A stretch of 64,000 bases of DNA from Eledone cirrhosa. Its lineage: Eukaryota. Below the pieces are notes generated by a model. That model made no database searches. It saw only the letters and a list, made by a program, of their open reading frames with translations, and had not been told where the DNA came from. The stretch spans positions 170,376,001 to 170,440,000 of the forward strand of contig OZ024740.1 of the NCBI GenBank assembly GCA_964016885.1. The letters are read 5' to 3'. Positions 4,780 to 62,933 of the stretch are shown here, in pieces. Position numbers and translations under genes: made by a program. Numbering within the stretch: the first letter of the stretch is position 1; the number at the start of each line of letters is the position of its first letter.

Positions 4780-5720
4780 CAACCTTCACTCCTTGTCCTC
4801 CTTGCTCTCGCTTTATTCCTTGCTCTCTTTGCTCTCCCTTCATTCCTTGCTCTCTTTGCTCTCCTTGCTCTCCTTCTTCTCCATGCTCTCCTTGCTCTCC
4901 ATTCATTCCTTGTTCTCCTCGCTTTCCTTGCTCTCCTTGTTCTTGCTCTCCTTGCTCTCCGTTCACTCTTTGCTATCCCTTCATTCCTTGCTCTCCCTGC
5001 TCTCCCTTCACCCCTTACTCTCCTTGCTCTCCTTGCCCTCCCTTCATTCCTTTCTCTCATCGCTCTCCTTGCTCTCCTTGCTCTCCTTGCCCTCCCTTCA
5101 TTCCTTTCTCTCATCGCTCTCCTTGCTCTCCTTGTTCTTCTTGCTCTCCTTACTCTCCTTGCTCTCCCTTCATTGATTGCTCTCCTTGCTCTACCTTCAT
5201 TCCTTGCTCTCCTTGCTCTCCCGTCATTCATTGATCTCATTGCTCTCCCTTCACTCCTTACTCTCGTTGCTCTCCTTGCTCTTCCTTCATTCCTTGCTCT
5301 CCTTGATCTCCCTTCATTAATTGCTCTCCTTGCTCTCCCATCACTCCTTACTCTCGTTGCTCTCATTGCTCTCCCTTCATTCCTTGCTCTCCTTTCTCTC
5401 CTTGCTCTCCTTGCTCTCCTTGCTCTCCTTGCACTCCATTCCTTTCTCTCCTCGCTCTCCTTACTCTCGTTGCTCTTCTTGCTCTTCCTTCATTCCTTGC
5501 TCTCCTTGCTCTCCCGTCATTCATTGCTCTCCTTGTTCTCCCTTCACTCCTTGCTCTCCTTGCTCTCCCTACATTCCTTGCTCTCCTTGCTCCTCCTTCA
5601 TTCATTGCTCTCCTTGCTCTCCCTCCACTCCTTACTCTCATTGCTCTCTTTGCTCTCCCTTCATTCCCTGTCCTCCTTGCTCTCCTTGCTCTCCTTCCAT
5701 TCCTTGTTCTCCTTGCTCTT
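4780..5720. repeat. Minisatellite built from 9-nt units (CTCCTTGCT / CCTTCATTC variants)
   Basis: Visible 9-nt periodicity over ~940 bp. Confidence 0.9.
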
Positions 5721-5759: not shown

Positions 5760-7050
5760 TGGGTGAGTGTGTTTTGTTTTCTGGCAGGGACTTTTGTCTT
5801 ATTTGTTTAGTTTTTAAGGGGTTGCGTTTCTTCTTCTCCTTCACTGGGGGAAGAGGTGTTGCACGTGTCTGATAATGATGGTGTTACATGTTTGTGGCAT
5901 TGTGTGTGTATGTGTCTAAAGCAAGTGGAGAAAGAGGGATGAGAGGGAAAGTTTGAGCTTCCTTGACATGGGTAGTTATGCTGGAGTCTGTTGTTATTGG
6001 TGATAGAGCTGGTGGTTCAATTGCTGCTGGTGATGATGTTGTTTGTCTAAGTGCTGGCGTAGCTGCTGCTGCAGCTACTGATGCTGCTCCTTGATGTTGT
6101 TGCTATTGTCGTGGCTGTTGAGGTCCTGGTGTAGGTAACAAAGCGACCCTGCCTATTATTAAACGCCAAAAGCTCTTAAGTGTTCAGTTTTTCCATAAAA
6201 ACGACAACGGGGTCTTTGCCTTCGGTGATACTTAGGTCCACGCAACCTAGAAGGCAAATTAGGCCTAGGTATGTTTTCATCCTTATCTGGTTTGATCTGG
6301 AGAGGTATCTCTGGATTGATCCCAGACAAGTTCTCCCTCTGGTTCCTCTTTACATCCAGGAGCATTTCTATTCCTTATAGCAGTATGCATGCTAGGACCC
6401 ACAAAATATTTATATCTGGTAGGGATCCTACCAGCAATGTGAATCTTGAGTGGCCTTTTTCCCATGTGAGAGGGAAACAACATAAATTGGTCCGTTTTGC
6501 GGGAGATCAGAGAGTATTTTTTGCAAGGGCTTCACTATTGGAGAGCAGTGAGATGCTCCAAAACAGCCTGGTCCTTGCTGCATGTTGGATAGCTCGCATC
6601 AATCCTTTCAGAGCTGCCCCCACATGGAATGCTTCGATCAGGTCCGGCTTTTGGGAGAGGTTCTCTCTCTGTTGCTACCAACAACTCAGGTGCAACACAT
6701 ATGTTGACCAAGTTTGTCAACTTTTACAAGTTTGGCTGCTTGAGCCAAACATTCCCCCTTCTTGTGTTGTCCATTTGGAAGTTTAGCATTAGCAGTTGAG
6801 TTCTTGTCACGTGAAAGCTAGCTTGAAGAGGAGGCGCGTATCACCTCCATTTCTTAAATTATTACTGGAGTGAAAATGAAAATAAAGGCCCAAATGTTAT
6901 GTTTTTCCTTTTCAGTAGACTATGTAAGCTGTCATATTAACTGTTTGTAACAACATATTTACACAAATAAAATTTTAAATAACTTTAAACAAACAAAACG
7001 TACGGAGCGATGTGTACACACGTCCCGACCGAGTGACACAAATGATGACC
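5760..7050 (-). mobile_element. Decayed 5' part (5'UTR + ORF1) of an L1/Tx1-like LINE, third ORF1 type (Tx1-E)
   Basis: MLFPSHMGKRPLKIHI and RQRPRCRFYGKTEHLRAF match VLVPSYCGQKIVRVKL and GKRPKCFRCGSKTHLRAFC of ORF1 at 25362; begins next to a (TTG)n tract; leader motif TCGCTCCGTACGTTTTG at 6994-7010 (-). Confidence 0.7.

Positions 7051-14070: not shown

Positions 14071-14076
<6 letters not shown>

Positions 14077-14165
<89 letters not shown>
14077..14165 (+). repeat. (TAA)n tract, 5' target flank of Dong-A
   Basis: Pure AAT run directly before the element start. Confidence 0.95.
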
Positions 14166-17100
14166 GGGAAGAAGACGCAGAGGTGACGGAGGTCATGAAA
14201 TCGCTCCCGTAAGTTTTGAATTTTTAACATATTTAAATCATTTGTGAAATAACAACTCTTAGTACAAATGCTACGTAAAGCACCCGGCTTGAGCCCCAAA
14301 AAATTCGGACCCAAAATATATTGTTATAAGGCTCAAATATTCAAATATTCAACTTTGTATTGTACACTGTATATCCCCCCCAAAAAATGGCTATAAATGG
14401 AAGAAGAATAACCCCCCCCCCCCCCTCCTCTCCTCTGGCTACACTATATAGGACAGCTAAACTCACCAACACCAGAAACTAGATACACCACCCACCCCAT
14501 CATCTGTGTACACTAAACACAACAGCATTTTCACCTTCACCGCCACCGCTCACTACGGCCATCATTACCACCACTATCCCATCACCGCCGCCACCACCCC
14601 TTGACTCCTTCACTGCTGCTGCCACCGCTACAGCACCATCACTACAGTAATACGGTCGCATCACCGCCACCACTGCCTCGGTATCGACATCACCACCACC
14701 ACTGTCTCAGTATCGCCAACGCCACCCTCTCCCACTTCTCCCTGCTGGCTGCTACTACTACTTCCACATTATAGAATCCCTACTACTAACAAAGAGGAAG
14801 GCATCAAAATATATAGATAGACTCAAAAGAAAAAAGAAAAAACAAACAACAAAACCAAAGCAGCACAGCAACAACAGCAAAAAACGAGAAAAACAAACAG
14901 AGAAAAACAAAAACAAAAAAAGAAACCCCAAAAACGTAAAGAAAATAAGAATGAAGAGAGAAGCAGGCGGACGGACAGAGAAGAGGGGGGAAAAAGTAAA
15001 ACTTAAAAAACAAAAACTAAGTCAGACATTCGAATACTACATTACAATGAAACTTATGCTTATTCATTTTTGGGGCCCTTTCTGCCCGTGTGTTTGTTTG
15101 TTTATGTGTGTTCGTATACAGCGTGGTGATAATGCCACACAAGGGCCAAGTGGGATGGCGGATCCACAGATGGCTATGTAAACATACATTCGCCAATCCT
15201 CGATAAGAGTGTTTAAATATCGAACATAAACAGTTCGAATAACGGTGAAATGGAGACTAGAACGTCATGTGACAGACTCTCACCCAACAGGTGCCCCCTG
15301 GCTCAGCAGCAGGAACCTGACTGTCAACCAAATACTGCTGATGTTGGAGGAAGAAGAAGAAGGAAAGGGGCCAGAACCAACTGGACGAAAGAATTGAATA
15401 GAACTGTTATGCAATGCTACCTGAAAAGTAACCCCAAGGAGAGGGGCTACAGGAGACGGATGCATAACATCTGGAACGAGATTGGTTTATTTAAATTAGA
15501 TGAACAAAAATTGGCCGGGCGGGCTCGGGTAATAAGAACTAATGGGTGGATAAGCGAGCTGGAACTGGAGGAACTGAGCAGAGAGAATGGCTTGGAGATG
15601 GCGGGTGTAGTATGCCAGACAAGCGAGCCGGTGGGAAATGAAGGTGAGGAGGTCCTGAGAACGGAGGAACCACCCGAAGCAGACAATGATCTGAATACTG
15701 AGATAAATAATACCTGGAACAGAGATACGGCCACTGAGGAGATGAATGCTGACGGGCTAGGACAAGATTCGGTTGACATCCTAAATCTAGTGGTAGATGA
15801 ATTGAACAATGATAGTGGGAGACCTATGAACCTAAGATGTGTAGACAGGAAAAAGTTAAAAGAAACAACAGCTAAGGTAAACAAAGTCATCCCATACCTT
15901 GAGGCGAGGAGTTTTCACCAGTGCAACAATATCCTCAAAGCAACAGCAAATACGGTGAGGAAACTACTTGGTATAAAAGCGAGAGGAAACAACAGACAAG
16001 AAAGAGCAGAGCCGTGGTGGAAGAAGCGACTGAGTGGGCAAATCGGGGAGATGAGAAATGACATAGGAAAGCTTGAGTCACTACTGAATGGGACACTAAA
16101 AAACATAGGCACTAAAAATAGACTGGAAATAAAATACAAAACTAGGAGTAAAAAGCTAAATATTATCATAGAGGAATTGAAGCAACGCATTGTAGCAAAG
16201 AGTGCCAAAATCAGGCGATACGAGAACAGAGTCAGTCAGTATAAACAGAACCGCATGTTCGACAACAACCAGAAGATGCTGTTTGGACAGCTTGAGGGGA
16301 AAGAAAGAGGCAACGACTTGATCCCTGGGGCGGAACAAGCTAAAACATTCTGGAGAGGAATATGGGAGCAGGATGTTAGACACAATGCCCAGGCAGGGTG
16401 GATTGAGACAGTACAGAGGGAGATCGGTGAGAAGGCACAACAACAGACTGATTTGAGTATCACAGTTGAAACTCTTAAGGGGCAAGCCAAAAAACTAACC
16501 AACTGGAAATCACCAGGCCCAGATGGTGTGCAGGGGTATTGGATTAAACATTTAACATCCCTCCACCCGAAGCTGACGGCCATGTTCAATGACTGCTTGG
16601 TGTCGGGTGAGGTGCCAGAGTGGTTGACAAAAGGTACCACAGTTCTGATAATGAAAGACCGAATCAAGGGTAATGATGTTACCAACTATAGACCTATCAC
16701 ATGTCTGCCCGTAATGTGGAAACTGTTGACGAGCATTGTGTCTGAGGAAATCTACCATCACCTCCACACAAACAACTTGTTACCGGACGAACAGAAAGGA
16801 TGCCGAAAGAAGTCACGTGGTACAAAGGACCAGTTGCTTATTGATAAGATGGTAATGGGGAATTGCAGGAGGAGACACACTGATCTTGCCATGGGATGGA
16901 TAGACTACAGAAAGGCATTTGACATGGTGCCTCATTCCTGGATCACCAAAAGCCTGGAGGTCTTCAGGGTGGCAGATAACATCAGACAGTTGCTGGGCAG
17001 GAGTATGGGGTCCTGGGAGACAGAGTTGACATCAACTGGAGTATCCTTGGGAAGCGTGAAGATCAAGAGAGGTATCTTCCAGGGAGATAGCCTGTCCCCT

Positions 17101-18716
17101 CTGTTGTTTGTCCTTGCCCTGATGCCCTTGACCATTATGCTGCGAAAAGTGAGAGCAGGATACAAGTTGGGAAGGGGAGAGCTTACCATCAATCACCTCC
17201 TCTTCATGGACGATCTTAAGCTCTTCGGGAAAAGTGAGAAGGAGTTGGATGTGCTTGTTGACACTGTCCGTATTTTCAGCAGTGATATATGTATGCAGTT
17301 TGGTATTGGTAAATGTGGAGTCATTGTGATGAAGAGGGGTAGGTTGAGCAGAAGTAACGGGATCCAGATACCAACAGGTGAGATGATAAAGGAAATTGAC
17401 TCTGAGGAAGGATACAAGTATTTGGGCGTTCTGGAGGCTGATGGCATAAAGAACAAAAAAATGAAGGAATTGTTAAGAACTGAATACATTCGGAGAGTAA
17501 GGAGCGTATTGAAGTCACATCTGAACAGCAGAAATGCCATAAGCGCAGTAAATTCCCGAGCTGTGTCTATTATTAGGTACAGTGCGGGAATTCTGAGATG
17601 GAATGTTGCTGAACAAAAAGAAATGGATAGGAAGACTAGGAAGCTATTGACTATCTACAACATGTTCCACAAAAGGAGTGATGTCGATAGACTCTACCTA
17701 AGGAGATCTGAGGGTGGAAGAGGTCTTATCAGCATAGAGGACTGTGTTCAGATGGAGAAAAACAACCTATACAAATACGTGACCTATAGTAAGGAGCCAA
17801 TGCTCAGAACTGTACTGAAGGAGGGGACAGTAGGCCAGGGGATGTCCAAGGAGGAAATAACATCAAGGAGGAAGAGCAGCCTTAAGGGAAAATCCCTTCA
17901 TAGTACCTTCTTTGAGAAAACTGAATTTAGAGATCCACAGACATGGAACTGGTTGAGAAGAGGAGACCTCAAAAAGGCTACAGAAGGAATGCTAATGGCT
18001 GCGCAGGAGCAGGCCCTCAAAACGAAGTGGTTGAAGCACCATATCTACAAGGAGGAGGCTAGCCCAATGTGCAGGATCTGTGGAGAGAGAGAGGAGACTG
18101 TGGCTCACATTGTGTCCGAGTGTAAACACCTAGCCCAGACCCACTATAAGGGCTGGAGACACGATGTGATGGGCAGGGTGATCCACTGGCACCTGTGCAA
18201 AGTAAACAATCTACCACATTCTGAGAAATGGTATGAGCATAGGCCAGAGGCGGTGATGGAGAACAGTCAGGTGAAGGTGCTGTGGGATTTTAGGATACAG
18301 ACGGACAAAAAACTGGAACACAATAGACCTGACCTGGTGGTTGTGGACAAAGAAAAAAGATCGTGCCTGATTGTGGATGTGGCCTGCCCGTTCGACACGA
18401 GAGTGCAAGAGAAGGAGAGGGAGAAAATTAACCGATACCAGGACCTAAAGTGGGAGGTGAAAAGGATTTGGAACTGCCATGAAGTCAAAGTGATCCCGAT
18501 TGTCATAGGCGCACTGGGGACTATCTCCAAAGGTTTCCAGGGATGGTTAAAGAAAATCGGCCCCTTCACGCTTTTTGGAACGCTTCAAAAGGCATGCTTG
18601 CTTGGAACAGCAAGAACCCTCCGATACGTCCTGAATATCTGAGGCTGCAGGTAGTGGCTTGATATTCAATCCAACGGACTTTCCAGTTAACCAACATCAA
18701 TGACTGAGATTCAAGG
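14166..18716 (+). mobile_element. Full-length R4/Dong-clade non-LTR retrotransposon (Dong-A) in (TAA)n
   Basis: (TAA)n on both sides (14077-14165, 18717-18743); ~1.1-kb 5'UTR homologous to that of Dong-B; single ORF; short 3'UTR. Confidence 0.9.
15250..18642 (+). CDS. R4/Dong ORF: RT + CCHC + restriction-like endonuclease, intact 1130 aa
   Basis: KSPGPDG, NYRPITCL, WIDYRKAFD, RGIFQGDSLSP, LFMDDLK, CRICGEREETVAHIVSEC, RHD, RPDLVVVD..IVDVACP..EK..Y. Confidence 0.95.
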   Translation: METRTSCDRLSPNRCPLAQQQEPDCQPNTADVGGRRRRKGARTNWTKELNRTVMQCYLKSNPKERGYRRRMHNIWNEIGLFKLDEQKLAGRARVIRTNGWISELELEELSRENGLEMAGVVCQTSEPVGNEGEEVLRTEEPPEADNDLNTEINNTWNRDTATEEMNADGLGQDSVDILNLVVDELNNDSGRPMNLRCVDRKKLKETTAKVNKVIPYLEARSFHQCNNILKATANTVRKLLGIKARGNNRQERAEPWWKKRLSGQIGEMRNDIGKLESLLNGTLKNIGTKNRLEIKYKTRSKKLNIIIEELKQRIVAKSAKIRRYENRVSQYKQNRMFDNNQKMLFGQLEGKERGNDLIPGAEQAKTFWRGIWEQDVRHNAQAGWIETVQREIGEKAQQQTDLSITVETLKGQAKKLTNWKSPGPDGVQGYWIKHLTSLHPKLTAMFNDCLVSGEVPEWLTKGTTVLIMKDRIKGNDVTNYRPITCLPVMWKLLTSIVSEEIYHHLHTNNLLPDEQKGCRKKSRGTKDQLLIDKMVMGNCRRRHTDLAMGWIDYRKAFDMVPHSWITKSLEVFRVADNIRQLLGRSMGSWETELTSTGVSLGSVKIKRGIFQGDSLSPLLFVLALMPLTIMLRKVRAGYKLGRGELTINHLLFMDDLKLFGKSEKELDVLVDTVRIFSSDICMQFGIGKCGVIVMKRGRLSRSNGIQIPTGEMIKEIDSEEGYKYLGVLEADGIKNKKMKELLRTEYIRRVRSVLKSHLNSRNAISAVNSRAVSIIRYSAGILRWNVAEQKEMDRKTRKLLTIYNMFHKRSDVDRLYLRRSEGGRGLISIEDCVQMEKNNLYKYVTYSKEPMLRTVLKEGTVGQGMSKEEITSRRKSSLKGKSLHSTFFEKTEFRDPQTWNWLRRGDLKKATEGMLMAAQEQALKTKWLKHHIYKEEASPMCRICGEREETVAHIVSECKHLAQTHYKGWRHDVMGRVIHWHLCKVNNLPHSEKWYEHRPEAVMENSQVKVLWDFRIQTDKKLEHNRPDLVVVDKEKRSCLIVDVACPFDTRVQEKEREKINRYQDLKWEVKRIWNCHEVKVIPIVIGALGTISKGFQGWLKKIGPFTLFGTLQKACLLGTARTLRYVLNI

Positions 18717-18743
18717 AATAACAATAACAATAATAATAATAAT

Positions 18744-20102
18744 TTCTTTATTAACCACAAGGGTTTACATAAAGTAGACATTAAGGACAGTGCAGGACAA
18801 TACAGGACGGTACAAATAGGCATTTCTGCGTGTAAAAAACAAAAACAGAGTATGTAACAAAAAAATAACAATGAAAAATTCCCCGATAGGAGGGAGACTT
18901 CGGAGGGACATTTGTGGAGAAAGCCCAGTAAAAGGCCACAGTGACCCTGACCACCAAGGCAAGTGCCCTCTCCCAGTTTTCCACCTTTAATTTACAGATA
19001 CATACTCAGAGTAGGCCCCGCCCTCAGGACTGCCGCTAAGTAACGATGGTCGACCCTATCGAAAGCTTTCGACTGATCTAAATTGATCAAGGACCCACCC
19101 GTGCCAGGTTCCCTAGCTACCCTCTCTACGATGTATCGCATGAGGTGGAGGTTGTCTTGGATGGATCTGTCGGGAATGCGCATGTCTGCGCCTCTCCCAC
19201 CAGACCACCAACGACAAGCGCCAACCTCTTTGCTAGCACCTTGGCCAAAATCTTGAACTCTGTGTTTAGCAGAGTTATGGGCCTGAAATTATCTATGTTA
19301 TCCCCCTTGTTCGGATCCTTTCTCAGCAGTGTCACCGCTCATCGGCTCACAGAGCTGGGAATTCTCCCGTTCTGTTGCCAGTTGCAGTAGACGTCCACCA
19401 AAACGCCTCCGAACAAGTCTGGCATCTGTACGTAAAGTTCATAGGGCAAACCATCCAAACCAGGCGATTTACCCCTTGTGCAGCCAGTCATTACCTCCCG
19501 TACTTCAGCGGCTGTTATCGGCTTTTCGCAACACTCCGCCTCAGTGGCCGAGAGCCGCGGCAGTCCGTCGAGGTAGACACTAAAGTCCATCCCTCGACCC
19601 GGCCCACCGCTGCCCCCGAACAGCTGAGCGAAGTGTTGCTGAAAAGCTTCACACATTTGCCCGGGATCGAGTAGCATGTGCCCGTCGTGGTCCACCAAAG
19701 AGCGGATCGTGTCTTTGTTGCCACGACGCGCCTCCGCCACTCGGGCTCAATGAACGGCCTTCGTCCCCTCGTGTCTGAGAGCACGCACCCTAGCTCTGAC
19801 AACGCAGCCTTTGTGCTTTGCATTGAAGAATTGGTTAAGGGCCAATTTCGCCGCAAGTACGTCGGTCGCGATGCCTTTGCTAAGCGCCTCGTCTAATTTT
19901 CTAACTAGTTCTCCCTTTGCTATATTTTTCTCTATTGCTAAAGCCTAACTAAACCTAATGGACTCTATTCTAATCGCTCTTTTCAGAGCAAACCACCACT
20001 TGTTTTTGACGATGGCCCCCGTCAACGCCCGCTTAACTAGTTCGCTAATCCGGTCTCTGTAGGCTTTGCGCGCAGTTAATGACGCGTTTAGCTTCCAGCA
20101 GT
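18744..20102 (-). mobile_element. Tx1-like LINE copy D, 5'-truncated with ~1.6-kb internal deletion
   Basis: 3'UTR and AATAAA match copies A-C; ORF2 jumps from YLAAVLRA directly to GPTLSMYL at ~19017; tail-to-tail with Dong-A across (TAA)n. Confidence 0.92.
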
Positions 20103-20104
20103 CC

Positions 20105-20345
20105 AGTCCTTTCAACTGAATTAGCTCAACATATAAGCCGTATATATATATATTCAAAATTAAATTAAATTAATTTAAGGGTGTCATGTCAGAGAGGCAT
20201 GCGCCATATCCACTGTAGAATATGCCCTAAGATTCCAATGAATAGATCCGACCATTTTATTATGACACCCTTAAATTAATTTAATTTAATTTTGAATATA
20301 TATATACGGCCCCTTAATTGTTGAGCTAACTCAGTTGAAAGGACT
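20105..20345. mobile_element. Fold-back / MITE-like element
   Basis: Outer arms agtcctttcaactgaattagctcaaca / tgttgagctaactcagttgaaaggact; inner arms ccgtata..attaatttaagggtgtcat / atgacacccttaaattaat..tatacgg. Confidence 0.6.
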
Positions 20346-21007: not shown

Positions 21008-21417
21008 TAGAATTTTAGTCTACGACTTCAATTATACCATAAACGTGGTTTTGTCTTTGCGTGTAATTGTTCTCACCGCTCAACATAATTGTTTCTACTT
21101 TAGGCACAAGGCCAGCAATTATCCAGTGCATTACTGGTACTTTATTTTATCGACCCCGTAAGGATGAAAGGCAAAGTCAATGACGTATTATCTTCGTTTT
21201 TTTTCATTCATTGCCAGAGAACGTCTCCACGAACCACCTAATAGAATATTAGTCTACGGCTTTATTCATACCATAAACGTGGTTTTGTCTTTGCGTGTAA
21301 TTGTTTTCACCGCTCCAAATAATTGTTTCTGCTATTGGCACAAGGCCAGCAATTACCAAGTGCATTACTGAACGTATTATCTTTCCGTTCTTTGCCAGGA
21401 AACGTTTCCACGAACCT
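21008..21417. repeat. Imperfect tandem duplication containing SINE 3' ends (- strand)
   Basis: 'atagaat.ttagtctacg..ccataaacgtggttttgtctttgcgtgtaattg..ggcacaaggccagcaatt' at ~21008 and ~21241. Confidence 0.75.
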
Positions 21418-22247: not shown

Positions 22248-22295
<48 letters not shown>

Positions 22296-22299
<4 letters not shown>

Positions 22300-22483
22300 G
22301 TTTCTACTTTAGGCACAAGGCCAGCAATTACCCAGTGCATTACTGGTACTTTATTTTATCGACCCCGTAAGGATGAAAGGCAAAGTCAACCTCGGCGGGA
22401 TTTGAACTCAGATCGTAAAGGGACGTAACTATGCTGGAAAGCATGGCGTCCGACTCTCTACCGATACTGCCAATCCACCGCCC
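22296..22483 (-). mobile_element. tRNA-derived SINE with Meta/MESC-like central domain
   Basis: B box GAGTTCAAATCC, domain gactttgcctttcatccttacggggtcgataaaataaagtaccag, tail ggccttgtgcctaaagtagaaacaatt. Confidence 0.85.
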
Positions 22484-22535
22484 TTATATATATATATATA
22501 TATATATAATGGCGGGCTGTGTGGTTGCATTTAAG

Positions 22536-23721: not shown

Positions 23722-25361
23722 TTAAGGATCGATTTCATCTATAAAGTATTGTATGTATACATACATACATATATAGATCATTAAGGATCGATTTCATCTA
23801 TAAAGTATTGTAAGTAAACGTATATACATAGACACCACACATTAAAAAGAATAATGAAAAGGTATGTATTTGAGTAGAAGAGGCTTATGTATTTTCGAAC
23901 ACACAAATATTAACAAAGACGAATCAGGAACGGAATTGTATCTTTCAATTGTCTTTTCTAACTGGATTCAGGGATAATTTTATTTCTACGTTATATGGCC
24001 TCTCCCAAATGATAGTAAAACAGCTAATAATAGTCAAAATTATATACAAAAGCAGCTGCAAAATAAGACTAGACACTGTTACTAAGCAATGGCATTGCGT
24101 ATAACAGCTGTTGCCTAGCAAATTAAATCTCAAATAATGTAATTCTGACATAATGGATGTTGCTAAAGAAAAAAGTTCTACAAAATAGTAGTGAGCAAGG
24201 AAAATACAACACATTAACAGTTTTGAAAACAGTTGTTTTGAAAATGGAGAGATTAATTTATCTGACAGTAAGCTACAGGAAAACATTATTTTTTAACATT
24301 TAGTGTGAATAGAAAGTAGTGCCTATAGCATACTAAAGTTTTCTTCATAAAAAGGGTAGATGAAGTGTTATAATCATTACTCAGTTTAAGGGAATTTCTT
24401 AACTTAAAACGAAAACAGATTTGCAAAGATTATGTTAAGTATCTCAGACCTTTTCAGTTACTGAATCGTGGTATACTAATGTGCAGTGAATTGTCTGCAA
24501 GAGTGCCGCAAGATTTGATGACAAATTGAGAGTATCCAATTTAAGTGTGAGTGTGTTTATTTTTGGCTGTTATTCTTTACCTAACTGGTGCATAATTATT
24601 CTATTGTAGAAAAATACAATACTTCCGCTCCTCTTGATTTTGAAATAATTTTAACACTTATTTCTTAATATAAGAATGGATTCGTTTAAAAATACGATGT
24701 TGTACAGAAATACTTTTATCAAGTTATTCTGTGAACTTTGAAACGAAAAGATGGAAAAAAGAAGGTCTGATTTGAATAAATAGAAGAAGTGTCTCCGTGT
24801 AGGTGTGTAAGGAGAAGGATTGATCATTTATCTATCTTCCTAGGTTTACTTTAAAATATTTTAATTTTTATTTTACTTTTATTACATAATTACATTCGGC
24901 TTTGCCGAAAATTAGAAACAAAATTAGAATTTAAGTTTTCGCTCGGTATGCAAATTAGCCAATGTATACTTTAGAAAATACAATATATTTTCAAAAGTTC
25001 AAATGAAAAAGGACAATAACCTAGAAACATGTAGGTTGTTCTTCGACGTTAAACGAACGGATGACGATGTTATCAAAAACAAGACATAGCATAATGAGAT
25101 TGTTTGCTTGAAAACAAATCGAATATTATTATTATTATTATTATTGAATGCCATGGTTGACGGAGGCTCGGCTCTGTAAGGTATAGTAATTTTTAACCGT
25201 TAAAACAATTGTAAATTGTTTAAAACTTGAACCAAATTGTTGATAAAGACACCCTCCTCCTCGTGAGAGGGGTCTTTCTGTCCGTTATTTGGCCCTTCGG
25301 GGTTAAATAACCAGTTATTGGGGTTTTGTACCCAAAATTTCATTTTAAACAAAAAAACAAC

Positions 25362-27454
25362 ATGGCTACGAAAAAGAAATTTCATACGTCACTCCCACTC
25401 ATTCCGTCTTCTTCCTCAATCATCACTACAGCAGAGAGAAGATTGTCTCTCTCCCTCCCTTCTTTAAATGTGTCTCTCTCCCTCCCTTCTCTTTCGCAAG
25501 TGACGAAAGAAAAGAAAAGTCTCGTGCAAAGCGTGCAAGGTTTCTCCACGACGACGACGACAGCGACGAAACAGGTGTGCGGGAAATACGAAAACCCAGT
25601 TCATTCGTCTGACGTCAGGAATAATAGCAGTAGCAGCCGTAATAACAACAGCAACAGTGACAATGAAAACAACAGTAGCAGCCGCAACAGCATCACCAGC
25701 AGCATAAACAACAACAGCATTAGCAGCAGCAACACCAACAACAACCACAGCAACAGCGGCGGAGGCAGTAGTCGTAGTACCTGCAGCAACAACAAAAGTA
25801 CCAGCAGCTCTGACGACAACAACAACAGCAGAGACAAACCAATCTCATTTGCAGGTATTGCGAAAAACTTGGAAACAATCCTCATAACAAATGAGGAATT
25901 AGAGGAAGCGAAGAAGATGGTGACAAAGAACGGACACCGAGCAATCTGCAAGGCAGCGAAAAATTTTTTCGAAACCCAAGAGCACTGTACGGTCACGTAC
26001 CGTACAGTAAGTACAAAATCCCGTAGGGTGGAAAGAGCCACAGAGGCCCAAATACAAAAAGCCTTGGGGTCTGTGTGGCAGAGGAAAACGCACATCACCC
26101 GAGGCAAAAAATACGCCACCGTAGACGTACTTTTTGCCACACCCCAGGAGGCAAAGGCCCAATCAGTAGTGACCCTAAGGAGCGAGGAAATGGTGTTGGT
26201 GCCCTCCTACTGCGGGCAAAAAATTGTGAGGGTCAAACTGACCCACGTCCCCCCCGGAATGACCCCTTCTTGGCTGGCCGCGTCTGTCCTCGTCGGAATC
26301 GAGGACAAAACAACTGTACTGCAAGTACAGAAAAAAGTAAGAGAAGATTGGGTCGGCTCCTCCATTGAGATGCTAATCCAAACCAACCAGGAGTGCATCG
26401 AAGCTATCCCGGATGTGATAGACTTCGATAACGGCACTCAACTGCCCATAAGTGTTGAGGGCAAACGCCCGAAATGCTTTCGCTGTGGATCGAAGACTCA
26501 CCTCAGGGCCTTCTGCAACGAGAAGACCCTGAGAAAGGAGAAAACCCCCCTCCTTCCGAATCCGGCTCCACGGCTACCAGCAACAGGACAAGCGGCAACC
26601 AGGAACGATAGGTCCGTGGCACCCATACCCACTCCACGAAATCAAAGACAGCAGCAGCAGTGGAAATATTAACAACAACAACAGCAATACCAAATGCAGC
26701 TGCAACAGAGACTCCAGTGCAAACATCACCAACAACAACAAGTGAAAGAGTGGAGCTGGTACCCCTCCCCGACCTCACAGAATCAGACATGGAGTGTGAG
26801 GTGGGAGAGGGATGGCAAAAGGTCGCAAGAAGGCACAAACGCAGAAGCAGCGCATCGTCGCCTTTGAAAAGTGAGGAAAGAAATGAGAAAAGGGTAAAGT
26901 CTACTGCAAAGAGACCCACAGCAGCAACAACACCAACACCATCACCACCCACACTAGCACCACCATCACCACCGGCGACAACCCCACCGCCAACAACACC
27001 TTCAACACCACCACCACAAGCACCAACATCGCAAACACAACAACAAAACACACACACCCAGCAACAACGACAAGAAAATAGCAGAACCACACCCCACCCC
27101 CAGAAAAACAAATGCACGGCAATAAATACACACAACAAGAAACTAATGACTTACATAATTGAACACACAGACATTTCACAACAGGACTACATAATACCAG
27201 CACCAATCAAAACGCCAACTAACATAAGACTGCTAAAAATAGCACAGAAACAATACACAAATATTAAAACGAAATTCCCCAACGCAGTTGGTGATTTCAG
27301 GGACCTAGGAGGAACCATCAATCGAAGAGTATACTCAGACATTCTCTTAGAAGAGCCGACGACCAGCCGAAGGGACGATTCAACGGTCCCTTCACCAGAC
27401 GATCAAGTGAAAAGGGATGTAAAAACCATCCCTCCTCTACCAAAAGTACGGTAA
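25362..27454 (+). pseudogene. Tx1 ORF1 type A (RRM-like region + CCHC knuckle), one frameshift near 26660
   Basis: ATG 25362; CFRCGSKTHLRAFC knuckle; ORF pieces 25326-26672 and 26660-27454; S/N- and P/T-rich tracts. Confidence 0.8.
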
Positions 27455-27489
27455 GTGGTCTTTCCCATCTTTTCCACTCTATTTTAAAC

Positions 27490-30400: not shown

Positions 30401-30909
30401 ACTTCCAGAAATCTCTGGCCTGGCAGTGCTACCGAGGAGCCTTGCCAGTTCGGGATAAACTCTACAGGCATGGAGGTGCCGTCAGCCGGGCATGTACGAG
30501 ATGCGCGCAGGGCGACGAAACCGTCCTGCACGCACTCGTCCAGTGTCCGAAAATTGCTGACTTGTGGGTTTATGTCGAACACCTGCTGTCGCGTTTAGGA
30601 CGGATCCGGCTATCATCTGAGTCCATCGTGAGGATTGCCCCGCCCTCCTCCTTTAGCCGGGAAGGGCAGGCAGTTTTTATCTGCCTGGTGGCCATGGCGA
30701 AAGAGATAGTATGGTGGACACGTTTGAAAGGGCTGAAGACGAGCACTTACCTCTTCGGTGATGCTCTGATTGACTTTTTCAAATTTCATTTGAAAAGGAA
30801 AATCAGAGTAGAGAGGGAAGTGCTCTCTTCCCAGCATTTTGTTGAAAGATGGGTGAGAGAAGCAAGAATGGCCCGAGTGAATGGGCCTACTCTGAGCATA
30901 TATCTGTAA
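27490..30909 (+). pseudogene. Tx1 ORF2 (APE endonuclease + RT + zf-RVT) with a single nonsense codon
   Basis: SINARGL, ISETR, GDWN, YLDRV, TDHK; KSPGLDG, DQSKAFD, RQGCPLS, YADD; CTRC..HALVQC; GGA>TGA at 29128-29130 relative to copy B, same frame continues. Confidence 0.93.
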
Positions 30910-31169
30910 ATTAAAGGTGGAAAACTGGGAGAGGGCACTTGCCTTGGTGGTCAGGGTCATTGTGGCTTTTTACTGGGCTTTCCCCACAAATGTCCCTCCG
31001 AAGTCTCCCCCCTATTGGGGAATTTTTCATTGTTATTTTCATTGTTAATTTTGTTACATCCTCTGTTTTTGTTTTTTTACACGCAGAAATGCCCATTTGT
31101 ACCGTCCTGCATTGTCCTGCACTGTCCTTAATGTCTACTTTATGTAAACCCTTGTGGTTAATAAAGAAA

Positions 31170-31222
<53 letters not shown>

Positions 31223-31435
31223 GGCGACCTACGTAGGAAATCTTATCATTGTGAGCTCCGCAAAGGTTTGTTGTTTTCGATTGTTTAAAATTGCCATTTA
31301 TGGAAATTTTTTGTTGTTAACTGTTTATAAGGTCACAAAATTTGCTTTCGGAAAAGGACACTCATAAAGATTGGGGCCTTAAGCCCAAAATTTAAACTTT
31401 TATAATTATCAAACAAAAAATTTATTTAAAAAATC

Positions 31436-33095: not shown

Positions 33096-33129
33096 GTGAT
33101 CTTTCCCATCTTTTCCACTCCATTTCAAC

Positions 33130-36791: not shown

Positions 36792-36849
<58 letters not shown>

Positions 36850-39800
36850 GTTGCATTATCTTGCTTTATGTTCATATGAGTTATCACCAAGTCACAACTA
36901 GTGACCTCAAGAGACAACAAGGTCCGCCATTTTCAAGAAATAACATACATACACACACATGCATCTTTAGGTGTTAAGACTTGTGATGTACTTATATTGA
37001 CAGAATTTTCCTTAGTATATGGGCAGTTCCCATTAGTACTATCTTTTGTATTTCTCCTATACGCGGGTTTCCTGGGATTTGCGATAAGGATTCATTAGCC
37101 CCCTTAGGTATCATTCCTAGAGCGCCTACAACCACTGGTATTGTTTTAGTTCTCAATTTCCACATTTTTCCAATTTCTATCTCCAGTGCCTTATACTTGC
37201 TCAATTTTTCAAATGTTTTTATAGATACATTCTTGTCTATTGGAACGGAATATCAATTAGCAGGCATACGCTCTTTTTAAAGTCCTTCAGTATTATTTGC
37301 ATCTATTTTTCGGTCTGTTTGGATGCTAAAGTTCCACAAGATTGAGATGTGATCTTTTTCAAGTATGGGAGGTGGTTGATGCTCCCACCAATTCTTTTGA
37401 TGGGGCAGGTCAAAAAGCTTACACATTATCCAATGTATGTATTGTGCAGCTCTGTCATGCCTGTTTAGGTATTCGGTTGGAACTATAGGACTGCACATTG
37501 AAATTATATGATCAATGGTCTCTGGTTGTTTTTTACATACACGGCATAATGGGTTGCATCCATTTTTTATTATGTTGGCTTGGTAATTTTTTGTTGGCAG
37601 ACACTGATCTTGTGCTGATATAATCAGTCCTTCAGTCTCCGATTTCAGTCCAGAGGATGCCAACCACTGATGGGTTAAAGTTTTGTCAACATCAGGATTG
37701 TTAGCTCTTTCTGGGTATTTTCCATACAGCGGCTTTTCTTGCCATTTCTTAGCCAGTTTCTGTAGCAGTTCTTTCTTTGCAGTTAATTTTACCTGCTTTG
37801 CTTTTTCCGTGTTTTCCATTTCAGCACTAAATGGGACTTCTGAAATTTGTAGTCCATTACTGTATCTTTGTGCATCTTTTGTAATGGAGTATGATCTTTT
37901 GATGCTTTCGTGTTTCAAAACGAGTTTGATCATCCAATCATGTGATTCCCTTAGATATATAGATAATCCAATTGTTGCAGTTTTCAACGCAATATCTAAC
38001 TGGGTTAATCCACGTCCTCCTTCTTTCCTAAGGAGATATATTCTATCTATATCTGCCTTAGGGTGATGCATTTTGTGCATGGTTAAGAATTTTCTAATTT
38101 TTCTATCGAGCCTATGGATCTGTGCTTGACCAGTTGATGACATTGTAACTGTAGGTTACTACTGGTATGGCAAGCGTGTTTATGGCATCGATCCTATTCC
38201 TTGCATTCAATTCCATTCTTAAGATTGCTCTTACTCTGCGGTAACATTCCTTCCTTATCCTCTCCCTTATTGTCGAGTGCTTGATTCCGTCTCCTTCACA
38301 AATACCTAGATACTTGTAAGTTTCCTCTTGATCAACTTCTCTTATCACATTCCCCCGATCAAGATTAATGTCTGAACTTTTCAGCAGCTCTCCTCTGGTG
38401 AACGTTGCTTTGGCGCATTTATCTAGTCCAAACTCCATTTTAATGTAATCACAGTGGATAATAGCCCTTGCAATTGTTTATCATTTTATGCAAATAGTTT
38501 CAGGTCATCCATGTAGAACAAGTGATTAATGGTTTTGTCATAGACTTTATATCCATGTTTTGTTTCATTGAGCATTTTACTTAATGGTATAAGTGGGATG
38601 CAGAATAAAAGCGGTGATAAAGAGTCACCCTGAAAAATTCCACAATTAATATTAACTTCTCCAGCTTCCAGTGATTTTGTCGTTTTCCATGTCTTCATAC
38701 TGAATGACAGGAACCTCCTGACAACGGGAGATATTTTGAAAATCTCTAAACATTTTTCAATCCAACTGTGTGGCAAACTATCGAATGCTTTTTTATAATC
38801 TATCCAAGCAATTGATAGATTCTTGTGTCTATTATGACAATCTTCCAGTATCATTTTGTTAACCAAAAGCTGATCCTTACAGCCATATGAGCCTCGTTTA
38901 CACCCTTTATGCTCATTGGGAAATAGATCATTTGTTATCAGGTGGCCATATGTATATTCAGTTAGGACTGATGTTAACATTTTATATATTGTGGTCAAGC
39001 AAGTTATCGGTCTGTAATTTTGGGGATTGTTTGTCTCATCATTCTTCGGAAGCAGGAATGTAATGCCGTTACCTAGCCATGATGGTATCTTTTCTAGCTC
39101 CTTAACTATTTCATTGTAAAGTTGGGCTAACAGCTCATGAGACTCTGTGACGGCATTTATCCAAAAATTTGGTATTTTGTCTTTTCCTGGGGATTTCCAT
39201 TTGCTGGTTTTTCTAAGAGCCAAACGCAACTGTTCAACTGTTATATTTTCCCATATTTGTTCCTCAAGGTGAGCTGTATCTTTCATTTGTCTGTCTATAT
39301 ATGGGGCATGTATATTATGAACTTTTTCTTCGGCCCAGATATTTTCCCAGAATTCTTGCACTTCCTCCTTGGGTGGTATTGATTTAGCAGTTATTGTTGA
39401 CTTGCCAATTTTTCTGTAGAAGTTTCTTTGGTTGTTTTTGAACATATTATTGTCCTTATAGAATCTAGATCCTTTTTCAAAGCGCCTTATACGAGCAGCT
39501 TTGGCCGACAGTTTTTGCTTGATTATTTCTATCAGCATGACTATGTCACTTGTTGATTTTATACTGTATTTCCTTTTCAATTTTCTAAGTTTAGTTTGTT
39601 TAACATGTTCACCTACTTTGTAGTTTGTTAAAATTTCTATGTCAGATCGGAGAAGGTTTATTTGGTGATTGATGTTCTCTTGCCAAGTAGATTTCTTGTG
39701 GGAATTCCTTTGTTTTGTCATTTTCACTCCACATAAGTGAGTGGTGATTTTAGCCGATGCATAATAGAGATGATTTACATCAGTAATGTTTAGTTTGTTT

Positions 39801-41764
39801 CTGATGATAGTGTGTTTGAGAATTATGTTAGTCTTGTGTATTATCTTTTGGTCCTGTTTGGAGTTCTGGATCTTAGGGATAGTGTCTCGTTCCCCCATGT
39901 CAGATTCTTTCATTTTCATCCATTCGATCATAATTTCATCCTTCGAGTTGGCAAGTGCATTCTCATTCATTTCTTTATCATTTACGATCTCATTGTTTTC
40001 ATTTTCAGTTTCACCATGAGCATGCACTCCCTCCACTTTTTCGATCCTTTCTTTAATTTGTTCTGTTTTCAGTGATTCCGCCCCAACCCTGGGATTCGAA
40101 GTGTTACAATTTACCTCGTTTTCACTGACACATGTTTCATTTTCCCTTCGCTGACTTTGTGCTAATAGCTTGATCTGATCAATTTCGATATTAGTATAGT
40201 AACTTATCAATTTCTATATTAGTTAGTAACTTTTTTTTAACAATATTTCTTCGTATATTGGCTAGTTTGTTACTGTCAATATAGCCTCTGTTTACGGGAT
40301 GTTTCTTTTTCCAGTTGATATATGTCTGTTCTGTATTCGATGTATTTGATGGGTAGTATAGGGCAGTGTAGAAAGCCTCAAGAACTTCTTTATTGTCTTC
40401 CCTTGACCATTTTTCTCTATTTTTCTTTGGGTTTCTTGGTGGTGAGCATGGAGGGCCAACAGTAGGAGTATTCCGGTTATGGGAGGTCTCCAGCTCCGAA
40501 GTGATGGGAAGGTTTGAACCATTAGCTGATTTTTCGACCCCAGTCTGGTTCCTCTCTGAGGGACGCAGCCCTTTTTGACTCGGGTGACGGCCAATCCGGT
40601 ATGAGATTTTATCATTTGACATTTACTTTATTTTGTCGTGTTTTATCCTTAACCGCCAAGGGGTAATCATTTCGTGTTACCACTTCTAGGACGAGTGACA
40701 ACCAAGACTAGAGAGGTCGTCCTCCCCTAGAGACACGGCTATTCTCCGCCGGCCGCCGGCCGCCATCCTGGTATTTCTTGGTCACGGGATTTTCTTTTTT
40801 GTTGTTTTTTAAATTGTTATTATCATCATGAGTGGTTCCTTAATGTGAGCATTGCGTGGCTTAAGAATGAAATTATTATTAATAATATAATATACTTTTT
40901 GTTGAAGTTTCCTGTTATTGTTGTTGGCTATGTCGGTGGTGGTGCTGGGACTTTTTCTATTGTTGGTGGGGAAGGGGAGAGCCAGCAGTGCCATAGTCGT
41001 TGAAGTTTGACCGAGTCACTAAGTCAGTCTATTTATATCTTTTGCTAGCCTCTCCCTTGTCTAGTGATACTGCCACCTTCCCCTTTCTTAAGTTAACAGA
41101 AGGTAGTGGGGTAATAGTGGTGGTAGCAATGAAGGAGTGGTGGCGGCGGTGATGGGATAGTGGTAGCAATGATGGAGTGGTGGCGGCGGTGACTATAGTG
41201 ATGGCGTTGTCGTTACTGAGTTTTGTTGAATAGACTGTAATAGTATGCGTTTGTTTGATCTGTGTATCTATGCGGTTTGTCGCGTATGTTTAATATATGT
41301 GTTGACATATTTTCTTAATATTTGAATTAAACATTTTGAGGAAACTTGAGATACAATAATAGTAATTATTATTATTATGCTAGGATTGGTGGTGGTGGTG
41401 AAATTGCCGTTATCTGGCTGTTGTATTTAGTGTACACAGAGGGTGATGTGATAGGTGGTGTATCTAGTTTGTGGTGTTGGTGAAATTACTGTTATTTGGC
41501 TGTTCTATATAGTGTAGACAGAGGTGGTTTTCTTCCATTTATAACCATTTTCTTTTTTGAATATAAAATTTATAATACAAAATTGAATATTTGAGCGATA
41601 TAACGGGATATTATGGGATCAAATTTTCTGAGAGCGGAGTCTGGTGCTTTATGTCTCATTTGTACAAAGAATTGTTATATCACAATTGTTTTAAATATGT
41701 TAAAAATCAAAAACTTACGGGAACGATTTCATAACATTCTATCCACTACGTGCATCTTCTTCCC
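36850..41764 (-). mobile_element. Full-length decayed R4/Dong element (Dong-B), divergent from Dong-A
   Basis: 5' end GGGAAGAAGATGCA matches Dong-A GGGAAGAAGACGCA; 3' end abuts (TAA)n. Confidence 0.9.
36992..40622 (-). pseudogene. R4/Dong RT-CCHC-RLE ORF with several frameshifts
   Basis: Pieces 40191-40622, 38486-40210 (NYRPITCL, GIFQGDSLSP, FYMDDLK), 38112-38438, 37277-38143 (CRVC..HIISMC, RHD), 36992-37204 (IPVVVGALG). Confidence 0.92.
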
Positions 41765-41804: not shown

Positions 41805-44800
41805 GGCGACCTATGTAGTAAATCGTATCATCGTGAGCTCCGCAAAGGTTTGTTATTTCCGTTTGTTAAAAATTGCCATTTATGGAAAATTTTTATTGTT
41901 AACTATATATAAGCGCACATACATTGTTTTCCGAAAAGGACACCTAAAAAGATTGGGGCCTTGTGCCCAAAATTTAAACTTTTATGATTATCAAAAAATT
42001 TCTTTGGAAAAAAAATGGCTAATTCACCTCTGCACCAAGCAGCTGAGAGCCTTCCTCACAAATTAACACCTCACACCGACACCACCATTGTAAATGTTAC
42101 TACGTTTGCCAACACTAAAAAAATATAAGCAGTAGCAATATTTTAAATTTGTCTCAGGCAGACATTCATTTCCCGCCATTACCAATGACTGCAGGTGTTA
42201 AAGCCACCACCACCACCACCACCGCGACAACCCCCACCCCCACCACCACCGCGACAACAGAAACAAAAGGAAAAAATAAATCAACTCGTGATGTCGAAAT
42301 ATTTTCAACCAAAATGGACTCATCCACACCGAACACCACTGACGTCACCACCACCACAACTGAAACTAAAATTAATAATAACAAAAATAACGATAACAGC
42401 AACAGCAACAATGACATTAAAAAAACCACCCTGAGTTTTGCCAGAGTAGAAAAACAGAGCGAAGCATTTACGGTAACTCAGGAGGAATTAGAAAATGCCA
42501 AAAAAATGGTAAAGAAATATGGGTACAGGGTCAGCCCCCCACCCCCCACACACACACACACACACCTAATAAAATGGAGCATCGGCGCCTATGCACCGTG
42601 TCGTATCGAACAATTAATGTAAAATCGCGCCGAGTGGAACGGGCATCCGAATCCCAAATCCAAAAAGCTTTGGGACATGTGTGGGCAAGAAACACCCACA
42701 TCAGACGTGGGAAAAAGTATGGAACCGTGGACGTGTTCTTTTAAACACCAGAGGAGGCTAGAGAACACTCCATGGCCCCATTAAGAAGTGACGACTTCAC
42801 ACTCGTCCCAAGCTATTGTGGCCAGAGACTCGTAAAGATAAGGGTGACCCACGTTCCACCGGCCATCGAAATTCCCTGGCTAATAGCGGCCGTCCTCGCC
42901 GGCATCGAAGCCAACACAAAGATAATAGCAATAGCAAAAGAAAAGCAGGAGAACTGGTCCGGATCTGGGATGGAGTTCCTGATCCAAGCGGACCAAAATA
43001 GCATTGAGGAGATCCCAGAGGTAATAGACCTCACTGACGACAGCCACCTCACCGTAATTGTCGAGGGCAGAAGGCCTAGGTGTGTCGTTTGTGGTGAAGG
43101 AACCCACCTAAGCGCTTTCTGCCCTCAGGCTAAAAAGTTGAGGCCACCTCTCCTACCCACCCCAGTGACTCAACCATCAACACCACCAGTAGCAGAGATG
43201 GCAGCAACAACTGTAGCAGCAACAACAGAAGCAACTATAACAGCAACAACCCCAGCAACAGTAGCAAAACCAACACCACCACAACGCTTCAGAACTAGCA
43301 CCAGCGCCTACACCATCCACCAGCGCCTACACCATCCACCACGCCACATCCAAAACTAACGCCTGTGGCCACTCCCCGGCCGATCACAACTGGAGACAGA
43401 TTGTGACGACGAGGAGTGGGAAACGGTATCAGGAAAAAAAAAAAGAAACCAAAAAAGAAAAAATTCTCTTCCTTCCCCCTCCAAAAACTAAATACAGAAG
43501 GAAACAAATAAATTAACAAACAAAAAAGTTAGGACAGATATGCCACCATCCACACCAGCATCACTAACCCCATCACCCCAAACACCAACACCATCACCAT
43601 CATTAACCCCAACACCACCATCACCAAAATGCGAAACAGAAACAAGCCCACAACAAACGCAAACAAAACAAAACAACCAAAACGATACACACTACACTGC
43701 ATTAAATTTGAAAAACAACCAATTATTACACTACATCCAACACAACACCAGCATCACAGAAAAAGACTACACAACAACCCCAAAATTCACACCACCTCCA
43801 CACATACAAATCACTCGCATCACACAGAAAACGTACATGACACTAAAACAAAAATTCCCCAAAGACATCGGAGACTTCCGACAAGCACTCTCCAGGTGGA
43901 TTTATAAGGACATCCTTCTTGAGGAGGCCACAAGCAGTGAAAAGGATGGAAAAACAGTCCTTCCTCTACGAGAAGTAAGGTAAGTGGTCTTTCCCATCTT
44001 TTCCACTCCATTTCAACATGACCTCACTCAGAATAGGCAGTATAAATGCGCGTGGCTTGGGGTCGTCATGGAAGCAGGGCCACCTGCTCAACGACCTCAG
44101 GTCACTAAACATAGATGTAGTGGCCATCAGCGAGACCACAATCTCCGAAGCACGGGCCTTCGCACCGATCTTCGGCGGCTACGATGTGTACGCATCTCCC
44201 AGCCGTCCGGGATCGGGGGGTGGAGTTGCTGTGCTTTTTCGGAGAGGTTTGGATCTTGCCATACGGGCCATCTTCCTGGACCCAGAAGGTAAGTTGGTGG
44301 TTCTGGACGTGACCAGCGGAGACGGGCAAACGTTCAGGTTAGTGGCCGTCTATGCCCCGACAGGAGCAGAGCGGCCTGATTTCTTTCGGCGTCTGGAGAC
44401 CTTTCTTGGAACGTCCCGCTCTTTAGTGTTAGTGGGCGACTGGAACGGGATCTTAGGGGAGGAGGGTGCAAGAGTCTCACCAACCTGCCCAGGCATTTTG
44501 AACTGTCTGACAGGTACCGATTGGATTTCCCGAATGTACCAATGTGGAGTTGGACAAATCGCATAGGGTCATCCAGATCATATCTAGATAGAGTATTTTG
44601 TAGGGAAATAGATAGGTCTAGCATAGGCTGTCCACAATTCAAGATAGTAAGCTATACGGACCACAAATTCGTGATCTGTGTGCTTGACTTAGATAGGCTT
44701 CATAGACGAGGACCCGGCTACTGGAAGCTAAACGCGTCCTTACCAGCGCGCAAGGCCTACAGAGACGGGATTAGCGAACTAATTAAGCGGGCGTTGACGG

Positions 44801-47590: not shown

Positions 47591-47594
47591 TTTT

Positions 47595-62835: not shown

Positions 62836-62841
62836 GTGATG

Positions 62842-62873
<32 letters not shown>

Positions 62874-62902: not shown

Positions 62903-62933
<31 letters not shown>

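What the first reader, a model, noticed from the sequence alone, without database searches (positions are those of the whole stretch)
14166..14290. One 5' leader motif shared by unrelated Tx1 (APE) and Dong (RLE) retrotransposons at the same microsatellite
Seen: roughly 20-55 nt inside the 5' end of six elements is a related motif. Dong-A TCGCTCCCGTAAGTTTTG (14201-18); Dong-B TCGTTCCCGTAAGTTTTTG (41708-26, -); Tx1-E TCGCTCCGTACGTTTTG (6994-7010, -); Tx1-A TCGGCTCTGTAAGG (25168-81); Tx1-B/C GAGCTCCGCAAAGGTTTG (31253-70, 41835-52). Tx1-A and the Dong leaders are also colinear for ~110 nt (TGACGGAGG, ATTTTTAAC, TTAAAACAATTGT, CAAAT, TAAAG(A)CACC). Known: L1/Tx1 and R4/Dong are very distant clades, and LINE 5'UTRs carry internal promoters that are often replaced. 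Inference: a portable promoter/leader module, possibly with a GTAAG splice donor, exchanged between clades that co-insert in (ATT)n, or convergent capture of one host promoter type.
Basis: partly seen in the sequence, partly recalled or inferred. Interest (0 to 1): 0.78.

Follow-up and report, generated by a model that had tools for sequence, protein, structure and literature searches.

The report
Dong retrotransposons captured a Tx1 leader
Two families of one jumping-gene type (Dong) carry the whole ~230-base front end of a very distantly related type (Tx1), bolted on upstream of their own older front end, which likely came from Tx1 and likely gives Dong its own promoter.

Summary
The motif is real at all six sites, and it is only the most conserved tip of a longer homology. 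A profile built from Tx1 leaders alone finds both window Dong leaders as its only untrained hits in 264 kb (E 4e-8, 3e-4; next 3.2), and still finds older Dong leaders with the motif removed (E 3e-7). The match is colinear up to the Tx1 ORF1 start codon, which Dong keeps as a short decayed upstream ORF ~860 nt before its real ORF. Two Dong lineages only 35% identical in protein share the leader; a third RLE lineage and 43 outside relatives lack it. The outside relatives' own 5' module survives internally in Dong-B (E 1e-10). Best reading: one capture of a Tx1 5'UTR plus ORF1 start by Dong lineage A, then transfer to lineage B. Promoter function is inferred: no RNA data. No spliced copies were seen beside about 2,100 unspliced leaders. 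Corrections: Tx1 and Dong sit in opposite orientation in the repeat, motif position varies (+31 to +48), Dong-A versus Tx1-B/C alone is not significant. 5'UTR swapping is known within L1; across the APE/RLE divide I found no report.

The parts
14076..14165 (+). AAT-sense target repeat before Dong-A
14166..14386 (+). Dong-A leader, homologous to Tx1 5'UTRs from about 14196 on; first ~35 nt are Dong-specific
   Evidence: Tx1-only profile hit 14201-14349, E 2.8e-4; upstream segment not significant
14201..14218 (+). Core motif; donor-like GT at 14209-14210
14387..14515 (+). Upstream ORF at the position of the Tx1 ORF1 start (start codons 14387 and 14397; end approximate); about 40 codons in A/B-type leaders, up to 87 in older C-type
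14516..15121 (+). C/A-rich low-complexity spacer ending in a pyrimidine tract and AG (acceptor-like, about 15120-15121; position counted from the alignment)
15122..15249 (+). Conserved proximal UTR; in older subfamilies it matches the 3' half of the outgroup Dong 5' module (no profile hit in this copy)
15250..18642 (+). Dong-A ORF (RT, CCHC, RLE; no APE)
41550..41764 (-). Dong-B leader (motif 41708-41726; lower bound approximate)
   Evidence: hit 41721-41608, E 4e-8; without motif E 0.0055
40663..40773 (-). Retained ancestral Dong 5' structured module, ~990 nt inside the new 5' end
   Evidence: (outgroup-only profile, E 1.2e-10)
36995..40622 (-). Dong-B ORF, frameshifted in this copy; intact copies 35% identical to Dong-A
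25146..25361 (+). Tx1-A 5'UTR (motif 25168-25181); nearest Tx1 leader to Dong in one tree
31223..31435 (+). Tx1-B 5'UTR (motif 31253-31270; end approximate)
41805..42014 (+). Tx1-C 5'UTR (motif 41835-41852; end approximate), back to back with Dong-B
6850..7050 (-). Tx1-E 5'UTR (motif 6994-7010; lower bound approximate), 5' fragment of an old family

Best explanation
Dong-A and Dong-B carry a copy of the Tx1 5'UTR and ORF1 start upstream of their own older 5' module, likely captured once from a Tx1 by the Dong-A lineage and likely passed on to Dong-B, where it is predicted to act as an internal RNA polymerase II promoter. Shown: homology of the leaders to the ORF1 start codon, its presence on two deep Dong lineages, its absence from a third RLE lineage and from outside relatives, and the internal ancestral module. 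Inferred: direction, single origin, promoter role. Likely route: a Dong inserted in sense into the AAT/AAC-rich start of a Tx1 ORF1 and was copied from the Tx1 promoter, or Dong RT switched onto Tx1 RNA; the ORF1 stub then decayed. The motif would be the most constrained promoter-proximal element (factor site or U1-binding site), not an intron that is routinely removed.
For: Tx1-only profile (19 Tx1 leaders): Dong-B E 4e-8 and Dong-A 2.8e-4 are the only untrained hits under E 3 in 264 kb; in 1.68 Mb of loci 27 of 27 C-type and 43 of 66 A/B-type hits have E<1e-3, reversed control best E 5.9. Motif removed: C-type best E 3e-7, 23 of 29 under 1e-3, control best 3.7; C-type L321 beats local shuffles against 6 of 9 Tx1 leaders at z 4.5-6.2 and 2,999-3,000 of 3,000 GC-matched genomic segments for those six. 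C-type to Tx1 identity 46-58% lies inside the Tx1-Tx1 range 39-68%. Leader-bearing Tx1 families differ by 41-70% in ORF2, whereas Dong leaders form one shallow group (98/99). Leader type predicts ORF: 42 of 52 Dong-type leaders have an ORF within 2.6 kb, all Dong; 88 of 112 Tx1-type do, all Tx1. A and B ORFs are 35% identical, each with 55-69% relatives elsewhere, yet share 73-81% of the 5' region, and L112 joins an A-type leader to a B ORF. Lineage D and 43 outside relatives give no profile hit. Outgroup-only profile finds the old module inside Dong-B. Thousands of copies start at a fixed base.
Against: No RNA run was available, so start site and activity are untested. With the motif removed, young A/B leaders are weak (0 of 33 under E 1e-3; window Dong-A vs Tx1-A z 0.3). 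No protein homology of the upstream ORF to ORF1 beyond low complexity. The donor family is unresolved: Tx1-A is nearest at 89/90, unstarred, and three alternatives are not rejected (p-AU 0.10-0.11); the tree is unrooted. The best old-clan match (L149/L159) has no ORF hit in 9 kb. No present-day sense Dong downstream of a Tx1 leader was seen (0 of 112). The first ~35 nt are not homologous. Sequences are AT-rich and loci were chosen with leader-derived patterns.
Confidence: 0.74

Rival explanations
1. The leader came from a third source (a host first exon or another element) or moved Dong to Tx1 at least once, for example into Tx1-A.
For: Unrooted tree; Tx1-A is less like other Tx1 leaders (39-46%) than like Dong (46-51%) and has a swapped 5' half on a B-type ORF2.
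Against: In Tx1 the leader ends at a real ORF1 start; in Dong the same start opens only a stub. Tx1 leader diversity is deeper; outside Dong relatives have a different 5' module.
Confidence: 0.11
2. Convergence on a host core-promoter or first-exon grammar, without shared descent.
For: The motif is the strongest part; the upstream 9-mer of Dong-A arose stepwise toward the Tx1-A version; young Dong leaders are weak without the motif. Host promoters and CR1-like 5' ends could not be tested.
Against: Near-gapless colinearity for ~190 nt to the start codon; older Dong leaders are more Tx1-like than young ones, the reverse of convergence; lineage D lacks it; 14 of 15 hits of the old-clan pattern are LINE leaders.
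Confidence: 0.06
3. The motif is kept mainly as a used 5' splice site: splicing to the acceptor-like site ~130 nt before the Dong-A ORF would remove the upstream ORF and yield the translated mRNA.
For: Donor hexamer is the best-kept part across families; a pyrimidine tract plus AG precedes the ORF in 33 of 38 A-lineage copies; a second donor-like site sits at the ORF1 end.
Against: No spliced genomic copy: 0 vs 859; of 21 and 30 variant hits, 12 and 25 were read and none was a splice junction; Tx1-B/C have GC at the site; no matching joint among those listed in DNA contigs (lists cut).
Confidence: 0.07
4. Chance similarity of AT-rich sequence, or a shared ribozyme/RNA fold.
For: GC 33-41%; several pairs not significant.
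Against: Shuffle, reversed and genomic controls; no Rfam match; no consensus structure.
Confidence: 0.02

Closest known systems
L1 5'UTR replacement in primates and mouse (PMC9022269, passages read)
   Same: New subfamilies arise by joining a different 5' promoter region to an existing coding part.
   Different: There it is within L1 or from unrelated sequence; here an L1-group (Tx1) UTR is on RLE elements and the old 5' module is kept downstream.
ORF1 transfer between CR1 and L2 lineages (PMC4120745, passages and section 13 read)
   Same: Cross-clade 5' module exchange, proposed to arise by insertion of one LINE inside another.
   Different: Both partners are APE elements and the ORF1 is kept; here the APE/RLE divide is crossed and ORF1 is reduced to a stub.
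Bombyx mori Dong with a self-cleaving HDV-like 5' ribozyme (PMC3774820, passages read)
   Same: Single-ORF RLE element in TAA repeats.
   Different: Its 5' end is a ribozyme for release from co-transcripts; here the 5' end is a Tx1-type leader and the structured module is internal.
Microsatellite-targeting Tx1 (Kibi, Koshi; PMC4494074, passages read)
   Same: APE elements of the Tx1 clade with repeat targets.
   Different: Other repeat units; the passages read report no leader shared with RLE elements.

Membership tests
R4/Dong clade (RLE LINE) | Single ORF with RT and no APE | tested here: met
   nearest solved proteins R2
R4/Dong clade (RLE LINE) | C-terminal CCHC and PD-(D/E)xK nuclease | tested here: met
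   read in the translations; motif definition recalled
R4/Dong clade (RLE LINE) | TAA-repeat target | tested here: met
   target of B. mori Dong
R4/Dong clade (RLE LINE) | RT tree placement with named R4/Dong references | not tested
R4/Dong clade (RLE LINE) | 5'-terminal HDV-like ribozyme | tested here: inconclusive
   my descriptor found none here but also 0 of 43 in outside relatives; an internal pseudoknot-like module in Dong-B
Tx1 clade (L1 group) | ORF2 with APE and RT, L1-like | tested here: met
Tx1 clade (L1 group) | Separate ORF1 and target preference | tested here: met
Tx1 clade (L1 group) | RT tree placement with named Tx1 references | not tested
   label recalled; no references in hand
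LINE internal Pol II promoter | Copies begin at a fixed base at the leader start | tested here: met
LINE internal Pol II promoter | Mapped start site and promoter activity | not testable with these tools
   no RNA holder listed
Used 5' splice site | Donor consensus | tested here: met
   (Tx1-B/C have GC)
Used 5' splice site | Spliced products among genomic copies | tested here: not met
Known structured RNA (Rfam) | Match of the leader to a family or shared fold | tested here: not met

The most novel reading that the evidence does not exclude
An RLE retrotransposon switched its expression strategy by taking the promoter of an APE retrotransposon, retiring its ribozyme-like 5' module to an internal position, and then handed the promoter to a second, anciently separate RLE lineage; LINEs that share a microsatellite niche trade 5' modules across the deepest split of the group, and this may underlie the thousands of full-length Dong copies here.
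Probability: 0.5. Interest if true: 0.78.

Novelty: new variant of a known kind. Interest (0 to 1): 0.63.

Why it matters
How RLE elements outside rDNA get transcribed, and where LINEs obtain new 5'UTRs, are open questions. This genome offers a dated series (older C-type to young A-type leaders, about 2,100 copies) with donor families, an outgroup lineage and the relict 5' module side by side, so promoter capture can be tested by 5'RACE, reporter and cleavage assays. It also warns that leader-based repeat annotation will mix Tx1 and Dong.

Tried and rejected
No RNA holder listed; both read layings used contigs of unknown kind and say nothing on expression. Rfam on the window and on both 5' regions: nothing relevant. 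HDV descriptor: 0 of 25 leaders, 0 of 43 outgroup regions, so uninformative; its relaxed form was tuned after seeing Dong-B and is not counted. One search used a mis-registered structure (its +2 slide is the intended helix); pairs were then read. DNA search with the Tx1-A leader found nothing, not even itself. RTE copies were old (72-83% identical) and their 5' ends were not examined; CR1-like 5' ends could not be defined in 19 regions, so other APE clades remain untested. Search for a Tx1 ORF behind a Dong-type leader: none in 6 loci. Lineage D versus 27 leaders: best z 2.7, expected among that many tests. The genomic background included the leaders themselves and was redone masked. ORF1-remnant protein search: low complexity only. 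Earlier scan findings: none. A last coordinate check was not run, so ends marked approximate come from earlier outputs.

Full report
Setting. The window is G000:C1:170376001-170440000 of an unnamed 3.0-Gb animal genome. It holds a nest of LINEs in trinucleotide repeats. Dong-A (ORF 15250-18642) and Dong-B encode RT without APE and are nearest to R2 proteins among solved structures; Tx1-A/B/C encode APE+RT and are nearest to L1 ORF2.

Observation. All six motif sites exist. Over the first 130 nt four cross-family pairs beat both shuffle types (DongA-Tx1E, DongA-Tx1A, DongB-Tx1A, Tx1E-Tx1B: 0-1 of 1000), while Dong-A versus Tx1-B or -C does not. The leaders are family features: 859 exact copies of one Dong-A word, 2,080 of the wider Dong motif, 2,454 for Tx1-A, 3,730 pattern hits (overlaps included; control 427) dominated by Tx1-B/C, 560 for a further family, Tx1-G, which sits on Tx1 ORF1 and ORF2. 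An old low-copy clan related to Tx1-E carries the version closest to the Dong motif; of its seven fetched loci three show Tx1 ORF hits and four none within 9 kb.

The unit is the whole 5'UTR. A profile trained on 19 Tx1 leaders and no Dong finds the two window Dong leaders at E 4e-8 and 2.8e-4, the next untrained hit at 3.2, in 264 kb. On 1.68 Mb of fetched loci it scores all 27 older C-type Dong leaders and 43 of 66 A/B-type hits under 1e-3; reversed sequences give at best 5.9. With the motif cut out, C-type leaders still score (best 3e-7, 23 of 29 under 1e-3) but A/B-type do not (0 of 33). The alignment runs nearly without gaps for about 190 nt and ends at a start codon in an A-rich context; in Tx1 that codon opens ORF1, in Dong it opens a Pro/Thr-rich upstream ORF of up to 87 codons (C-type) or up to 43 (A/B-type) with no specific protein match to ORF1. 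C-type identity to Tx1 leaders (46-58%) lies within the spread among Tx1 leaders (39-68%). The first ~35 nt are family-specific.

Direction. Tx1 families bearing the leader differ widely in ORF2 (41-70% identity to Tx1-B), whereas all Dong leaders form one group (98/99). A third young RLE lineage, D (30% identical to A and B, TACA-repeat target), has a different 430-nt leader with no profile hit. Of 80 metagenome contigs with Dong relatives, 43 picked by eye for upstream DNA gave no hit (best E 2.5 and 0.13); in the 17 with a target-like repeat the ORF match begins 159-417 nt after it in 13 and up to 1,049 nt in the rest, against about 1,085-1,150 nt here. A profile from four of these outside 5' modules hits window Dong-B at 40773-40663 (E 1.2e-10, next 0.25) and the 3' half of C-type copies (E 1e-5), but not window Dong-A. 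The module has helices kept across species, one with double changes; an HDV-like fold lacking P4 is my reading only. So the Tx1-type leader is an addition upstream of the older 5' end. The donor family is unresolved (Tx1-A nearest, 89/90).

Transfer between Dong lineages. A and B ORFs are 35% identical and each has its own 55-69% relatives elsewhere, but their 5' regions are 73-81% identical, and L112 joins an A-type leader to a B ORF. The oldest leaders (C-type) lead only to A-lineage ORFs (19 of 27 with an ORF hit, none B), which suggests A to B. The B 5' region also holds a SINE 3' tail, a sign of assembly from nested inserts. Eleven or so of the 20 fetched B copies were 5'-truncated, not differently headed.

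Mechanism. Shown: fixed 5' ends at the leader. Inferred from LINE biology (own knowledge, and PMC9022269 passages): the Tx1 5'UTR is an internal promoter, so Dong gains one; B. mori Dong instead has a self-cleaving 5' ribozyme (PMC3774820 passages). Tx1 follows ATT-sense and Dong AAT-sense repeats, so they face opposite ways in one tract, as Dong-B and Tx1-C do at 41764/41805. Capture therefore more likely came from a sense insertion into the AAT/AAC-rich start of ORF1, like the nesting model in PMC4120745 section 13, or from a template switch; no present-day intermediate was seen (0 of 112). The donor-like core is not seen spliced in genomic copies, though the RNA that makes the protein is normally the one copied (own knowledge); a factor site or U1-binding role is more likely than a removed intron.

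Novelty. 5'UTR replacement within L1 and ORF1 transfer between CR1 and L2 are known. Ten library searches (listings only unless cited) showed no report of a Tx1 5'UTR on an RLE element. An Octopus vulgaris repeat paper lists active Dong-R4 and L1-Tx1 families and has no occurrence of UTR, promoter or chimera terms in its main text (PMC13282606, passages). PMC4494074 and PMC4640811 were read as passages. No supplements were read; Repbase entries and subscription papers were out of reach, so prior notice there cannot be excluded. Verdict: real, a new variant of a known kind, interest 0.63.

Noticed in passing
window 27451-27490, 33092-33130 and the same junction in L031, L164, L165, L174, L195: A strong splice-donor-like site overlaps the ORF1 stop of diverse Tx1 families, about 38 nt before the ORF2 start, followed by a pyrimidine tract (exact hexamer in 12 of 17 readable junctions, near-match in 4). 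Splicing to an AG in ORF2 codon 5 would fuse ORF1 and ORF2 in frame. 0 of 44 variant genomic hits show that join.
   Followed up: partly
window 25146-31171 vs 31223-36792: Tx1-A and Tx1-B are 94-95% identical in ORF2 DNA but only ~52% in the ORF1 core protein and not significantly alike in the first 130 nt: a 5'-half swap within Tx1.
   Followed up: partly
L288-L305 (Dong-D, e.g. G000:C16:401000-407500): Young RLE family in TACA repeats whose leader starts with a YY1-like word (recalled consensus); it shares 8 nt with the Tx1-B 5' terminus and an 11-mer with Tx1-G, without wider similarity.
   Followed up: partly
window about 15090-15121: Pyrimidine tract plus AG before the Dong-A ORF, present in 33 of 38 A-lineage copies.
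   Followed up: partly
L104 5' region positions 859-905; L313, L315, L325: SINE tail fixed in the Dong-B 5' region; several antisense SINE pieces inside C-type Dong 5' regions.
   Followed up: partly
L115 about 2560-2650: A Tx1-B leader piece is fused to an antisense Dong leader piece at a homologous point, a possible recombination product between the two leader types.
   Followed up: no
Tx1-G leaders (L164, L176-L195), about +150 to +180: Near-perfect palindrome that hits the profile on both strands; weaker forms in other Tx1 and C-type Dong leaders.
   Followed up: no
5' termini of Dong-A/B, Tx1-A, -B, -G, and the family at flank +74235: The first base after the target repeat is G in each, which could reflect copying of the RNA cap.
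   Followed up: no
window 18717-20110 (-): Internally deleted, 5'-truncated Tx1 copy inserted tail-to-tail in the Dong-A tail.
   Followed up: no
window 21085-21180, 22294-22485, 47594-47790, 48057-48254, 50517-50703, 61093-61282, 63210-63370: Abundant tRNA-like SINE with ATT tail.
   Followed up: no
window 4789-5719 and 61617-63291: A 9-bp minisatellite of ~104 copies next to Tx1-E, and long low-complexity open frames with no Pfam match.
   Followed up: no
L288, L292, L294 3' flanks: Another element family starts in TACA repeats directly after Dong-D tails, with a similar terminal word.
   Followed up: no
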